From: Leucoraja erinacea
Lineage: Eukaryota
Assembly (NCBI RefSeq): GCF_028641065.1
Contig: NW_026576392.1
Location: 1-64,000 of the forward strand
DNA length: 64,000 nucleotides
Reading direction: 5' to 3'
Part shown: positions 1 through 42,451 of the stretch, piece after piece
Numbering within the stretch: position 1 is the stretch's first letter
Layout: every line of letters starts with the position of its first letter
Notes under the pieces: generated by a model
The model's input: the letters and a program-made list of their open reading frames with translations, nothing else
Database searches by the model: none
What the model was told of the DNA's origin: nothing
Translations under genes and position numbers: made by a program

Positions 1-767
1 TGAGTTCCTGATGATGCCGGTACCAAATAAGTTGTAGCTCGTTTCTGCGGTATTATAGGTGCAGTTAAAAGTCACCGACTCTCCTTCTACTACCTGTGCT
101 GACGGCAGCGATTGTGTGACGGTATCTCCATGATTGGGATCTGAAAAAATATATGGATTAGGTTTAGGCTTGTCATGCGTGCACCGAAATACGCGGAAGA
201 CCTTTGTATTACATGTCACCCAAACACATCAACTGATAATATACTTAAATACAATCAAACCAAACGCACGTTCAATAGATAGTTAAATGGAAGATGGCGA
301 GTGCAGAATAAAGTTATTATTATTGTAGCGAATCAGTTCCAGAGACAAAGGCCAATGTCGACACTGGGGTGGATATGCATCGCATAGTTCCCTTGCATAT
401 CGAGGTGAATCGAACATGGCCGCGGCTCAGTGGTAGGAAGGAACTGCAGATGCTGACTTAAACCGAAGTTAGACACGAAAAGCTGGAGTAACTCAGCGGA
501 TCTGCCAGCCTCCATTGGCAAAAGGAATAGGTGACCCAAATAAGGATCTCGACCCGAAACATTACCTATACCAATTCATTTTCTCCATGGCATATGGATG
601 GCGATTAGATAGTACCCGGCTTTCCATTTACATGTAGGGAGAGATTAGACAGGTTTCGCATTCACAATGATGGTCGACCTTTCGTCGGAGCAAGTAGCCG
701 GATTAATTGTTGCGACTTTACCTATCAGGCATGCTCCCCACACAATCCAAATGGCAAGTACGCGCAT
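1..767 (-). CDS. TCR alpha/delta V gene, family A (A0), truncated by window start; leader 767-722, V exon from 140
   Basis: Leader MRVLAIWIVWGACLI-G with GTAAAG donor; ttttcAG acceptor then DPNHGDTVTQSLPSAQVVEGESVTFNCTYNTAETSYNL; apparent -1/+1 indel pair around the WYR codons in the first 30 nt. Confidence 0.85.
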
Positions 768-2379
768 TTTCCCTGTGAAAGGCTCTTTGTGAACTTCCTT
801 CCTCGACCTGGTGCTGTGCGGCTTTCGGATGTTCTCGCCTCTCCTGCTGGTGCTGGTGGCGCTGGGGTAAAGGTGAGCGGGAAGCGGCTGACTTCCGCCT
901 ACCTCAACTTCCTCCCTCCTTGGGACTCGGTCAGCGTTCTTTCAGGTTCGGCATGTAGTGACTGGGTGGGGGAAGGAAACGTCTTCGTCGCTGTAACAGG
1001 GGAAACTCGGCTCGGCTTTTGGGAGGAACTCCATGGTATCATAATGTAAAGGAACTATGAGGAGCGGGTCAATGCGGGATTTATAGGTTACGTTGATTGC
1101 CTGGCGAAATGTACTTTCTGTTTAAATTTAATTCCGAGTTAGAAATGACCCCCATTCCCACATCGAACCGCAAGGAACGGATTCGATGCGAGATAGATGC
1201 AAGTTAGGATGCGAGGCCACCTTTAGAGTATTGCGTTCCGTTTTGGGCACGTGTCATATGAAAGATGTTGTCCAGCAGGGAAGGGTGCAGAGAAAACGTG
1301 CGATGATGTTGCCAGCACCCAAGGGACTGAGTTTGATTCGTGTAGTTCAGAGATACAGCGCGGAAACTGGCCCTTCGGCCCCACTGTGTCCACACCTACC
1401 AGTGATCCCCGCACATCAACAATACCCTACACACACTAGGGACAGTTTTACGTTGATCAAGTCAAGTCAAGGCAACTTCTATAGCACATTTAATAACAAC
1501 TCTCGTTGTGCAAAGTGCTTTATATTAGTGCAGGTTCTAAACGTGCTACAAACAGTTGTACATAGATCAACAATACACACATAAGTACATACATACAGCG
1601 CTCTCACAGAGGATCTCAAGAAAGGCTTGAGAGTAGAATTACGTTTTCGGTCTAGGCTTAAAAGAGTTGATGGAGGGGGCTGTTCTGATGGGAAGAGGGA
1701 TGCTGTTCCATAGTCTGGGTGTTTATAACAAGCCAATTAACCTACAAACATGTACGTCTTTGGATTGTGGGCGAAACCCCAAGATCTCGGAGAAAGCCCT
1801 CGCAAGTCACGACGAGAGCGTACAAACTGTACATACAAGCACCCGTAGTCGGGATACCCGTGTCTCTGGCGCAGTGAGGAAGTAGCTATACCGTTACGTC
1901 ACCGTGCCGCCGTGCCACTGTGCTACATGGTGAGGATGAGGTGGCTAGGACTATTCCATGATGCGCAGGGGGGTGAAGGGTGTCCAAAATCGTGAGAGGA
2001 GTAGATCTGGTAAATGCACAGAGTCACTTGCCCCGTATAGGGGAATAGAGAACCAGTGGAAACAGTTTGATTCTGTGTGTGTGTGTGTGTGTGTGTATGG
2101 TGGGGCTTTAATATGAACCATTGTCTGTACACAGTTTGTACGCTCTCCCCGCGCCTTGCGTGGGTTTTCTCCGAGATCTTGGTTTTCCGCCCACACTCCA
2201 AAGGCGTCCATGTTTGTAGATTAATTGACTTATTATCAATGTAAAATTGTCCCTAGTTTGGGTATTGTTAATGTGCGGGGATCACTGGTAGGTGCGGACT
2301 CGGTAGGCCGAAGGGCCCGTTTCCGCGCTCTATCTCTGAACTACACTAAACAAAACTCATTCCCTTGGGTGCTGGCAAC

Positions 2380-2383
<4 letters not shown>

Positions 2384-2424
<41 letters not shown>

Positions 2425-2716
2425 CCTTTATTGTCATCTTGCAAGGAACAGTTGTAAAGTGCAAAATTAAAAGACGTTTTTCCCAGGGAATAGCGGCGCA
2501 TCGCACATGAAATTTAAAACATTTCACACACAGTAACACGAAAAACAATCCAGTCCCTGATGGAACAGTATAAATAGTTAAAAGCAGGTAAACCACAACG
2601 TTAAAATACAATAAACCAATCATAAAAATGTCTGGGGCAGCTGATTTGAGTGGCCAGTGCCAGTTGTTAAAGTGTCCGTGCCAGCCGCAGAATCAAGTGA
2701 CTGTGAGTACAGAGTG
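2384..2716 (-). mobile_element. Retroposon 3' fragment with (ATTG)n tail (also ~16145-16498 and, inverted, ~22051-22337)
   Basis: (TCAA)n run plus AATAAA on minus strand; ATCA duplication; empty site ggcaacatcatcccaag in other units. Confidence 0.7.
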
Positions 2717-39649: not shown

Positions 39650-40369
39650 GGTGTCTGTCAGCTGAGTCGATGATGTGCCGTCGGCAATCAGAGCGCTCCC
39701 TCGTTGTTGCCCCGTGTCTCCGTTGGCTCTCCAATAGCGGTGAGCGGGGTGGGGTCTACCTGTTGATGGAACAGCTGCGCTGGAGTCACTGCCCTTATAA
39801 GGGAAAATCGGAAGCAATAAAAGCAAAATAGTGTTACCCAAGGAGCTCGGTGTTATATGATGAGATAACGTAACGACACGTATATACCTGAAGGTCATTG
39901 TGCGTTGAACGGCTCCCAAATCATGTCTGTGAGTTTCATGACGTTCAGTTCAGTTTGGTTTCATTTGATTTAGTTTAGTTCAATTTAGTTTAGATTTGGT
40001 TTATTATTGTCACCTATAACGTGAAACAGTAAAATAAAACGTTATTTTAAGGGGCAAAGGGAATTCGGGTACAAGATGGTGAGAGAATGCGAGGGAACCT
40101 AAGCGGGGGAGGGGAAGGGGAAACAGGGGTTTCTCCAAGTTAGACTCAGAGAGTCATACAGCATGGGAACGGACTCTCCAGCCCAACCTGCCCACACCGA
40201 CCAATATGTCCCATCTACATTAATCCCACCAGCCTGCGCTTGGCCCATATTCCTCCATGCCTATCTTTTCCATGTGCCTGTCTAAATGCTACGATGGTAC
40301 CTGCCTCAACTACCAACCCCGGCAGCTTGATCCAGACACCCACCACCGTTTGTGTAAAAAGATTACCCC

Positions 40370-40534
40370 NNNNNNNNNNNNNNNNNNNNNNNNNNNNNNN
40401 NNNNNNNNNNNNNNNNNNNNNNNNNNNNNNNNNNNNNNNNNNNNNNNNNNNNNNNNNNNNNNNNNNNNNNNNNNNNNNNNNNNNNNNNNNNNNNNNNNNN
40501 NNNNNNNNNNNNNNNNNNNNNNNNNNNNNNNNNN
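40370..40534. other. Assembly gap
   Basis: N run. Confidence 1.
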
Positions 40535-41525
40535 CTCTATTCCCCTATACGGGGCAAGTGACTCTGTGCGTTTACTCGATCTATCCCTCTCATTATTTTG
40601 GACACCCTTCACCCCCCTGCGCATCATGGAATAAAGTCCTGGCCACCTCATCCTCACCATGTAGCTCGGTGGCACGGCGGCACGGTGACGTAACGGTATA
40701 GCTACTTCCTTACTGCGCCAGAGACACGGGTATCCTGACTACGGGTGCTTGTATGTACAGTGTGTACGATCTCCAAGTGACTTACGTAGGTTTTTCTCTG
40801 AGATCTTGGGTTTCCGCCCACACTTCAAGGACGTACATGTTTGCAGGTTAATTGGCTTGTTAGAAAATGTAAAATTGTCCCTAGTGTGTGTACGGTATTG
40901 TTGATGTGTGGGGTCACTGGTAGGTGCGGACTCGGTGGGCCGAAGGGCCAGTTTCCGCGCTCTATCTCAAAACAAAACCCAGTCCCTTTAGTGCTGGCAA
41001 TATCATCGCAAGTTTTCTCTGCACCCTTTCCTGCTGGACAACATATTTCATATGACAAGTGCGCAAAACGGAACGCAATCCTCTAAAGGTGGCCCCGCAT
41101 CCTAACTTGCTTCTATCTCGCATCGAATCCGTTACTTGCGGTTCGATGTGGGAATGGGGGCCATTTCTAATTCGGAATTAAATTTAAACAGAAAGTACAT
41201 TTCACCAGGCAATCAACGTAGCCTATAAATCCCGCATTGACCCACTCATCATAGTTCCTTTACATTATGATGCCTTAGAGTTCCTCACAAATGCCCAGTC
41301 GCGTTTTCCCTGTTACAGCGATGAGGACCAGTCACTACATGCCTAACCTGAAAGAACGCTGACCGAGTCCCAACTGGGCAGGAAGTTGAGGTAGGCGGAA
41401 GTCAGTCGCTCCCCGCCCACCGTTACCACAGCGCCACCAGCACCAGCAGGGGAGGCGAGAACATCCGAAAGCCGCACAGCACCAGGTCGAGGAGGGAATT
41501 TCACAGATATTTTTTCACAGGGAAA

Positions 41526-42451
41526 ATGCGCGTATTTGCCATTTGGATTGTGTGGGGAGCATGCCTGATAGGTAAAGTCGCAGCTGTTAATCCGGCTACT
41601 TGCTCCGACGGAACGTCGACCATCATTGTGAATGCGAACCGGTCTTATCTTTCCCTACATGTAAATGGAAAGCTCGGTACTATCTAATCGCCATCCACAT
41701 GCCATGGAGAAAATGAATTGGTATAGGTAATGTTTTGTGTCGAGACCCTTCTTCACGTCACCTATTCCTTTTGCCAAGAGAGGCTGGCTGACCCGCTGAG
41801 TTACTCCAGCTTCTTGTGTCTAAATTCGGTTTAAGTCAGCATCTGCAGTTCCTTGCTACCTATACGCCGCTGCAATGGTCGATTCACCTCGATATGCAAG
41901 GGAAATATGCGATGCATATCTACCCCAGTGCCGACATTGGCCTTTATCTCTGGAACTGATTCGCTACAATAATAATAACTTTATTCTGCACTCTCTATCT
42001 TCCCTTCATCTATCTATTGAGCGTGCGTTTGATTTGATTGTATATTATCAGTTGATGTGTTTGGGTGACATGTAATACAAAGATCTTCCGCGTATTCCGG
42101 GGCACGCACGACAACCCTAAACCTAATCCATATATTTATTTCAGATCCCAATCATGGAGATACCGTCACACAATCGCTGCCGTCAGCACAGAAGGTAGCA
42201 GGAGAGTCGATAACTTTCAGCTGCACCTATGACACCGCAGCAACGTACTACTACTTATTTTGGTACCGGCATCATCAGGACTCAAGGCCCGAGTTCATAC
42301 TGAGGAAATATTCACATGGAACCGGGGAGAAAGCCGAATTTGCAGGCGATCGCTTCTCTTCCCAGCTCCAGACCGATCGAAAAGTCGTCAGTTTAACCCT
42401 ATCGGGGCTGGAGCTGAGCGACTCTGCAGTTTATTACTGCGCCTTTAGCCT
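41526..42451 (+). CDS. TCR alpha/delta V gene, family A (A12), intact, absent from the ORF track; leader 41526-41571, V exon 42145-42451
   Basis: Manual translation DPNHGDTVTQSLPSAQKVAGESITFSCTYDTAATYYYLFWYRHHQDSRPEFILRKYSHGTGEKAEFAGDRFSSQLQTDRKVVSLTLSGLELSDSAVYYCAFS. Confidence 0.92.

What the first reader, a model, noticed from the sequence alone, without database searches (positions are those of the whole stretch)
1..42451. Germline hypervariability focused on CDR1/CDR2, with one near-randomised codon
Seen: frameworks are almost invariant, yet the CDR1 codon in TAC-NNN-TTA reads AAC, GTC, TTC, GAG, ACC, CTC, TTC, GAC, GTC, GTC, TAC (8 amino acids in 11 copies; first base takes all four values). 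CDR2 reads WKDSSGTEK, YKHSGGNED, KKYSSGGEK, YKDSRGNEE, WKHSGGTEK, YKRSRGNEE, YKYSGGTEK, NKYSSGSEE, RKYSHGTGE, which looks like reshuffled blocks. AGCT/TAC AID-type hotspots lie next to the variable codon. Known: sharks hypermutate TCR V regions somatically. Inference: strong diversifying selection plus short-tract gene conversion; targeted germline mutation is a more speculative option.
Basis: partly seen in the sequence, partly recalled or inferred. Interest (0 to 1): 0.7.

Follow-up and report, generated by a model that had tools for sequence, protein, structure and literature searches.

The report
Selection-driven diversity in fish T-cell-receptor genes
Recently duplicated T-cell receptor gene segments of a cartilaginous fish differ mainly in their antigen-binding loops, almost only by amino-acid-changing mutations and without the fingerprint of the immune mutator enzyme, so this is likely ordinary strong natural selection, helped by DNA exchange between copies, a pattern already known from other vertebrates.

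Summary
In detail: all 11 codons and all 9 CDR2 strings are as listed. The copies are unrearranged TCR alpha/delta-type V genes (leader, intron, V exon, 23-bp RSS) of a cartilaginous fish; 8 more lie on another contig. Over 15 full-length copies CDR diversity is 0.18-0.23 against 0.074 in the intron. The excess is amino-acid-changing: CDR piN 0.23-0.26, piS 0.05; framework piN 0.03, piS 0.07. Site models give omega 7-8 at about 10% of codons, chiefly 36, 38, 55, 57, 59, 61. Targeted germline mutation is not supported: no raised silent rate, no WRC enrichment, the hotspot C of AGCT is invariant, few tandem changes, and three truncated pseudogenes keep one codon state. Exchange between copies is shown for promoter and intron (tracts of 0.1-1 kb) and inside exons of the neighbouring V family, but no CDR-confined tract is significant in this family. 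A V gene without close donors varies at the same codon. Verdict: a strong example of known diversifying selection on germline CDR1/CDR2. No earlier scan note on this was found.

The parts
1..767 (-). V copy W1: leader exon, intron, V exon cut by the contig end; codon 38 AAC; 1-nt deletion just after CDR1 (possibly a homopolymer error)
3246..4216 (+). V copy W2, likely pseudogene (TTG for ATG, Trp41Cys); codon 38 GTC at 3978-3980; 23-RSS 4178-4216
6762..7731 (-). V copy W3, intact; codon 38 TTC at 7000-6998
13590..14561 (-). V copy W4, open frame (Y-C-C in place of Y-Y-C); codon 38 GAG at 13828-13826
17029..17999 (+). V copy W5 (reference): leader 17029-17074, intron 17075-17653, CDR1 17743-17763, codon 55 + CDR2 17812-17838, 23-RSS 17961-17999; codon 38 ACC
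20550..21519 (-). V copy W6, intact; codon 38 CTC at 20788-20786
24116..25088 (+). V copy W7, intact; codon 38 TTC at 24850-24852
27492..28463 (-). V copy W8, intact; codon 38 GAC at 27730-27728
31532..31689 (+). V copy W9, truncated pseudogene (stop at codon 6, CDR2-RSS deleted); codon 38 GTC; serves as non-functional control with two like copies on C989
34041..35014 (-). V copy W10, intact; codon 38 GTC at 34279-34277
39185..39472 (-). V exon of another subfamily with one near-identical counterpart in the assembly; differs from it at 4 codons, all amino-acid-changing, one of them the same last CDR1 codon
41526..42490 (+). V copy W11, intact; codon 38 TAC at 42252-42254
47520..49004 (+). V copy W12, diverged relative (82% identical exon)
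52131..62742 (-). Seven V exons of a second amplified family (27 read on this contig up to 107 kb), used as comparison: same CDR-focused amino-acid excess and clear within-exon exchange

Best explanation
These are tandem and inverted duplicates of one germline TCR alpha/delta-type V gene whose CDR1/CDR2 differences are almost all amino-acid-changing, likely because ordinary germline point mutations at a few ligand-facing codons were favoured by positive selection and then likely spread between copies by unequal crossing-over and gene conversion. Shown: anatomy, excess of replacement over silent change, normal silent rate in the CDRs, mosaic ancestry of the 1.5-kb gene unit. Inferred: that the selected side chains contact MHC/peptide or another ligand, that a new duplicate is kept only if it adds a new binding surface, and that fine-scale conversion also reshuffles codons inside the exon of this family.
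For: piN/piS over pre-set IMGT CDR1+CDR2 = 0.225/0.056 (bootstrap P < 0.001), frameworks 0.032/0.073, intron pi 0.074. Only 3 of 16 CDR codons (codon 55 included) show any silent difference, each in a single copy. M2a/M8: omega 6.7-8.1 at 9-11% of codons, 2dL 44-98 on three tree/sequence sets; sites 36, 38, 55, 59 posterior >= 0.99 in all three. A model with raised omega beats one with raised mutation rate by 9-14 lnL at equal parameter number on three trees; a CDR mutation rate of 2x framework or more is rejected, best near 0.5x. Variable codons alternate with invariant ones (55/57/59/61 variable; K56, S58 invariant in 15 of 15, G60 in 14 of 15), along the predicted C' strand and CDR2 loop. 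Three truncated pseudogenes that differ by 5-7% over 1.6-1.8 kb share GTC at codon 38 and TAC at codon 36, whereas two full-length copies match at codon 38 with probability 0.077. The V gene at 39.2-39.5 kb, whose next relatives are <= 78% identical, differs from its counterpart at 4 codons, all replacements, 3 in CDRs incl. the last CDR1 codon. The second family shows CDR piN/piS 2.4 (P 0.006) and framework 0.47. The same codons vary in contigs of three public runs coded as three organisms. Exchange: PHI p 0.0005; GENECONV-like tracts 112-331 bp; 51 of 2730 triplets significant, 10 of 15 copies. Human TRAV/TRBV CDR1/2 codons show the same kind of selection (PMC13396459, passages).
Against: Codon models and recombination tests are my own scripts (PAML, HyPhy, GENECONV absent), use NEB rather than BEB, and recombination inflates such LRTs. 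Codon 38 needs omega about 16-32 to give 9 amino acids under clonal simulation; omega 8 gives that in 2-4% of runs. The silent-rate test cannot exclude single hypermutable bases that happen to sit at codon positions 1-2. No exon-only conversion tract is significant in this family (PHI p 0.9; 0 of 2730 triplets). In the second family CDR1 silent diversity is somewhat raised (0.157 vs 0.113) and its CDR1 ratio is not significant (1.67, P 0.08). Three doublet changes lack an observed intermediate (codon 59 CAT; codon 16 in W6; one CDR2 codon of the 39-kb gene). The pseudogene control has n = 3. No expression or ligand data.
Confidence: 0.86

Rival explanations
1. Short-tract gene conversion confined to the CDRs is the main source of the diversity, importing blocks from other V genes, with little need for selection.
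For: Exon homoplasy (mean incompatibility 0.606) exceeds clonal simulations with strong site selection (0.35-0.44; P 0.00-0.027). Multi-base codon states recur on different flanking backgrounds (matrix). The neighbouring family has within-exon PHI p 0.0003 and a 55-bp tract over CDR1 (corrected p 0.012; 9 of 27 copies significant).
Against: Conversion moves silent and replacement changes alike, yet CDR piS is 0.05 and piN 0.23; import from diverged donors would raise piS. No exon-only tract is significant in this family. The 39-kb gene with no close donor varies at the same codon. 5 of 6 hypervariable codons examined form single-step networks.
Confidence: 0.07
2. AID or an SHM-like machinery mutates the CDRs of unrearranged V genes in germ cells (or somatically mutated V sequence is copied back to the germ line).
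For: Shark TCR alpha V genes are hypermutated somatically (PMC5931798, passages). Three doublet substitutions without observed intermediate. Codon 38 is extreme. The array is CpG-rich with no CpG transition excess, which may mean open, unmethylated germline chromatin (inference).
Against: CDR silent rate not raised. The C of AGCT (codon 36 position 3) is C in 15 of 15 and the C of TAC (codon 37) in 14 of 15 although C>T is silent there; 13 framework hotspot silent sites show one transition in total. WRCH sites are no more variable than other C/G in non-coding DNA (30/90 vs 90/278, OR 1.04, CI 0.63-1.73) or CDRs (5/8 vs 7/10), against 4.3-fold in shark SHM. Tandem share of private changes is 0 of 14 in CDRs, 6% in frameworks, 9% non-coding, against 38-51% in shark SHM. 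Pseudogene copies stop varying. Introns and RSS are retained, so no cDNA copy is involved.
Confidence: 0.04
3. Assembly or sequencing artefact, or somatic mutations captured from lymphocyte DNA.
For: Unplaced 108-kb contig; two single-base deletions in homopolymers (W1, C8); a second contig holds a related array whose status (other haplotype or duplicate) is unresolved.
Against: Errors would not respect codon phase; genes are unrearranged with intact RSS; the same variant bases occur in contigs of independent public runs.
Confidence: 0.02

Closest known systems
Diversifying selection on germline CDR1/CDR2 codons of human TRAV/TRBV genes (PMC13396459, passages read; it cites Su and Nei 2001, seen only as a reference entry)
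   Same: Codon-level positive selection in CDR1/2 and also at some framework codons of germline TCR V genes.
   Different: There the test spans old, diverged V genes and alleles; here it acts within one young subfamily (introns about 7% apart) and is stronger per site (omega 7-8, codon 38 about 16-32 by my models).
Nurse shark germline TCR alpha/delta V segments and their somatic hypermutation (Ott et al. 2018, PMC5931798, passages read)
   Same: Cartilaginous-fish alpha/delta V segments in a family of highly similar copies (12 of 17 at > 93% nucleotide identity in that paper).
   Different: SHM there is somatic, 4.3-fold hotspot-biased, 38-51% tandem and raises silent changes too; the germline differences here show none of these marks.
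Birth-and-death evolution with unequal crossing-over and gene conversion in Ig/TCR V and MHC families (recalled, not from a call)
   Same: Recent duplication, pseudogenes among intact copies, mosaic ancestry, replacement excess at ligand-contact codons.
   Different: No principled difference found.

Membership tests
TCR alpha/delta V gene segment | V-set Ig domain with C23, W41, Y-Y-C104 | tested here: met
   Pfam V-set E 1e-16; model pLDDT 92 with C' and C'' strands; TM 0.91 and 41% identity to TCR delta V 1tvd
TCR alpha/delta V gene segment | Split leader exon, phase-1 intron, 3' RSS with 23-bp spacer, unrearranged | tested here: met
   46-nt leader exon, 579-nt GT-AG intron, CACAGTG-23-ACAAAAACA in 15 of 15 full-length copies
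TCR alpha/delta V gene segment | Closest named relatives are TRAV/TRDV rather than Ig V | tested here: met
   Best protein hit Callorhinchus milii 52%; the one hit of 14 with a specific name is TRAV; best single-domain PDB hits are human V-delta and TCR alpha chains
TCR alpha/delta V gene segment | Linkage to and rearrangement with J-alpha/C-alpha or D-J-delta/C-delta | tested here: inconclusive
   Contig is unplaced; no J or C search was made; the one RNA run laid gave 0 reads, no test. Alpha versus delta use is open.
Positively selected germline CDRs | dN > dS in CDRs, dN < dS in frameworks | tested here: met
Positively selected germline CDRs | Silent rate in CDRs not above background | tested here: met
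   piS 0.05 vs intron 0.074; rate >= 2x rejected
Positively selected germline CDRs | Selected residues contact ligand | not testable with these tools
   Positions lie in the CDR1 loop, start of strand C, C' strand and CDR2 loop of the model; no ligand complex is known. Their match to mammalian V-alpha contact positions 29, 31, 48, 50 is recalled; search found no paper and one search was not held.
AID-type somatic hypermutation footprint | Enrichment of changes at WRCH/DGYW C:G | tested here: not met
AID-type somatic hypermutation footprint | High share of 2-4-base tandem substitutions (cartilaginous fish) | tested here: not met
   0 of 14 CDR singletons, 2 of 35 framework singletons in tandem vs 38-51%; three doublets remain
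AID-type somatic hypermutation footprint | Raised silent as well as replacement changes over the V exon | tested here: not met
CDR-focused short-tract gene conversion | Significant tracts confined to a CDR with an identifiable donor | tested here: inconclusive
   None significant in this family; excess homoplasy; one 55-bp CDR1 tract significant in the neighbouring family

The most novel reading that the evidence does not exclude
A germ-line mutator related to the shark somatic hypermutation machinery (doublet-making, not WRC-bound) acts on these CpG-rich, open V exons in germ cells and feeds selection with extra CDR variants, as germ-line RAG activity is recalled to do for joined Ig genes in sharks and skates; the doublets at codon 59, codon 16 and in the 39-kb gene would be its trace.
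Probability: 0.04. Interest if true: 0.9.

Novelty: new member of a known kind. Interest (0 to 1): 0.24.

Why it matters
It is a clean, strong example of selection on germline TCR CDR1/CDR2 in the oldest lineage with TCRs, and it names six to eight codons (36, 38, 55, 57, 59, 61; also 24, 82) as candidates for ligand contact in cartilaginous-fish TCRs. It also warns that germline paralogue differences at exactly these codons can be mistaken for somatic hypermutation in shark/skate cDNA studies. It does not show a new mutational mechanism.

Tried and rejected
RNA evidence: no RNA holder listed; the one RNA run laid gave 0 reads from about 6% of the run, no test. Downstream-flank diversity (0.093) was not used because three copies are non-homologous there. 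The short V-like matches on the opposite strand downstream of each RSS were examined as a possible neutral control; they read as a weak 25-residue resemblance in the flank, without CDR1, and were dropped. The Monte-Carlo triplet test had too coarse a floor and was replaced by exact p-values. The joint omega/mutation-rate fit stayed at its starting value; only the profile and the two one-parameter models are used. Fold search added only the V-domain fold. CpG hypermutability as a cause: rejected, CpG sites are no more variable than GpC (19/104 vs 28/108). Literature: ten searches found no site-level selection analysis of cartilaginous-fish germline TCR V genes; the library lacks most subscription journals, so this is weak. 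PMC3245739 was not held. No supplements were read. Earlier scan notes: none on this topic by words; 8 of 14 genome notes shown, none bearing on it.
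Full report
What the region is. The window is the first 64 kb of an unplaced 107.7-kb contig of a 2.19-Gb genome. It holds an array of unrearranged V gene segments. The family in question has a 46-nt leader exon (MRVFAIWIVWGACLI), a 579-nt intron, a V exon and a CACAGTG-23-ACAAAAACA signal. It is a V-set domain; the best protein hit is from Callorhinchus milii (52%) and the only specifically named hit of 14 is a TRAV; human V-delta and TCR alpha chains are the best single-domain PDB matches. 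I file it as a TCR alpha/delta-type V subfamily of a cartilaginous fish; alpha versus delta use was not determined. Eleven copies lie in 1-42.5 kb in both orientations, a twelfth at 82% identity at 48.7 kb, and eight more on contig C989, which shares a 3.2-kb unique segment at 96.8% identity and the same gene order near it, so it is either the other haplotype or an older duplicate. Statistics use the 15 copies with a full exon (9 window, 6 C989); W1, W9, C4, C7 (truncated) and W12 (diverged) were left out, and runs on 13 intact or the 9 window copies gave the same picture.

The observation. Codon and CDR2 lists are exact. Codon 38 has 9 states in 14 readable full-length copies; no non-coding triplet of 1006 reaches more than 7. 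Pairwise diversity: upstream 0.073, intron 0.074, FR1 0.039, FR2 0.029 (0.059 with codon 55), FR3 0.050, CDR1 0.180, CDR2 0.193 (0.231 with codon 55); non-coding windows of like length average 0.076 and peak at 0.17-0.18. Overstatements: 3 of 11 copies are not intact, frameworks do vary, and the codon is constrained (third base C in 17 of 18, second base never G, all states one step apart).

Selection or mutation. The excess is in replacement changes only. With CDR limits set by the IMGT rule, piN/piS is 0.225/0.056 in CDR1+2 and 0.032/0.073 in frameworks; this comparison needs no tree and is not biased by recombination. Only 3 of 16 CDR codons carry a silent difference, each private to one copy. 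My GY94 site models give omega 6.7-8.1 for 9-11% of codons, 2dL 44-98, with codons 36, 38, 55, 59 at posterior >= 0.99 in all three runs and 57, 61, 24, 82 high in most; recombination inflates these tests, so they locate sites more than they prove the case. A two-partition model prefers raised omega to a raised mutation rate by 9-14 lnL; the CDR mutation rate profiles best near half the framework rate and twice or more is rejected. Variable and fixed codons alternate (55, 57, 59, 61 vary; K56 and S58 fixed in 15 of 15), which fits side chains facing out from the C' strand and CDR2 loop of the model (facing inferred from strand register, not measured).

The AID idea. Shark TCR alpha SHM is 4.3-fold enriched at WRCH/DGYW and 38-51% tandem (PMC5931798, passages). 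Here WRCH sites are no more variable than other C/G (non-coding 30/90 vs 90/278; frameworks 9/29 vs 16/71, p 0.45; CDRs 5/8 vs 7/10), the hotspot C at codon 36 is fixed in 15 of 15 and that of codon 37 in 14 of 15 although C>T is silent, and tandem pairs make up 0 of 14 private CDR changes. Hotspot density is equal in CDRs and frameworks. Three truncated pseudogenes, 5-7% apart, keep the same codons 36 and 38. Against my reading: non-coding singletons show a mild tandem excess (10 pairs vs 5.0 expected, p 0.03), three coding doublets lack an observed intermediate, CDR tests have few sites, and codon 38 needs omega of about 16-32 under clonal simulation.

Exchange between copies. Trees from upstream, intron and exon disagree at well supported nodes. 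PHI is significant upstream and in the intron (p 0.0005) but not in the exon (p 0.9); GENECONV-like tracts of 144-331 bp upstream and 112-122 bp in the intron are significant, none in the exon (best p 0.058, FR3). Exact triplet tests flag 10 of 15 copies over the whole unit with tracts of 0.4-1.1 kb, and 0 of 2730 triplets in the exon alone. Yet exon homoplasy (0.606) exceeds clonal simulations (0.35-0.44; P <= 0.027), which suggests fine-scale exchange or convergent selection on a small residue set. In the neighbouring family (27 copies, 52-107 kb) within-exon exchange is clear (PHI p 0.0003; 9 of 27 copies; a 55-bp tract over CDR1, corrected p 0.012), and CDR piN/piS is 2.4 (CDR2 12.3; CDR1 1.67, not significant, with silent diversity 0.157 vs 0.113).

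Independent checks. The V gene at 39.2-39.5 kb has one 98% counterpart and no other relative above 78%; the two differ at 5 bases in 4 codons, all changing the residue, including the last CDR1 codon and two CDR2 codons. In four public runs, 12 listed exon variants of this gene fall mostly in or beside CDR1/CDR2 and 10 of 12 change the residue when taken singly. For the main family, contigs of three runs vary at codons 36, 38, 55, 57, 59 (40 rows shown, 67 not shown). So the pattern is general across V genes of this locus and does not need a conversion donor.

How it most likely works. A 1.5-7-kb unit carrying the V gene was amplified recently by duplication and inversion; ordinary point mutations arise evenly; those that change residues at ligand-facing CDR1/CDR2 codons are favoured (inferred: new MHC/antigen-binding surfaces), those in the core are removed, and crossing-over and conversion mix parts of copies. 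This is the known mode of germline TCR V evolution: human TRAV/TRBV show diversifying selection at CDR1/2 and some framework codons (PMC13396459, passages), and human germline CDR positions carry over 10 amino acids (PMC10631762, passages). PMC2191167 was seen as abstract only and not used. Older work on Ig V CDR selection, the soma-to-germline proposal, germ-line-joined shark Ig genes and V-alpha contact numbering are recalled, not from calls. Ten searches found no site-level analysis for cartilaginous-fish germline TCR V genes (see Tried and rejected), so the data point may be new, the kind is not.

Verdict: real, well supported, ordinary in mechanism. Interest 0.24; new member of a known kind.

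Noticed in passing
window 1-64000 and L001-L022: CpG observed/expected is 0.75-0.87 across the window and 0.56-0.89 in other V-array stretches, against 0.31-0.76 (median about 0.47) in ten arbitrary chromosome stretches; CpG sites among the copies show no transition excess (19/104 vs GpC 28/108). Suggests an unmethylated germline domain or GC-biased conversion.
   Followed up: partly
window 36200-45500 vs L001-L002 (C989 2000-13300): C989 mirrors this segment at 95-97% identity but the V arrays beyond it are not collinear copy for copy: a highly divergent second haplotype or an older duplicate with different copy number.
   Followed up: partly
window 52131-64000 and L009-L013: Second V family of at least 27 copies at about 1.7-kb spacing with two CDR2 block types (TTYKGGEK / TKYEAAPK and hybrids) and a CCCACGG-like heptamer region in place of CACAGTG; RSS quality not assessed.
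   Followed up: partly
window 31532-31700; L002, L003: Three pseudogene copies share one deletion that joins the end of FR2 to the downstream flank, apparently at a short CTG microhomology.
   Followed up: partly
window 17074-17653 and upstream of each copy: Intron and upstream DNA of the unit contain pieces that look like SINE/LINE ends and an inverted internal duplication of the promoter-intron segment (self-matches such as 9198-10386); element identity recalled, not tested.
   Followed up: no
codons 24 and 82 of the V exon (e.g. window 17719-17721, 17893-17895): Two framework codons (strand B; start of strand E near the fourth hypervariable loop) also score as positively selected.
   Followed up: no
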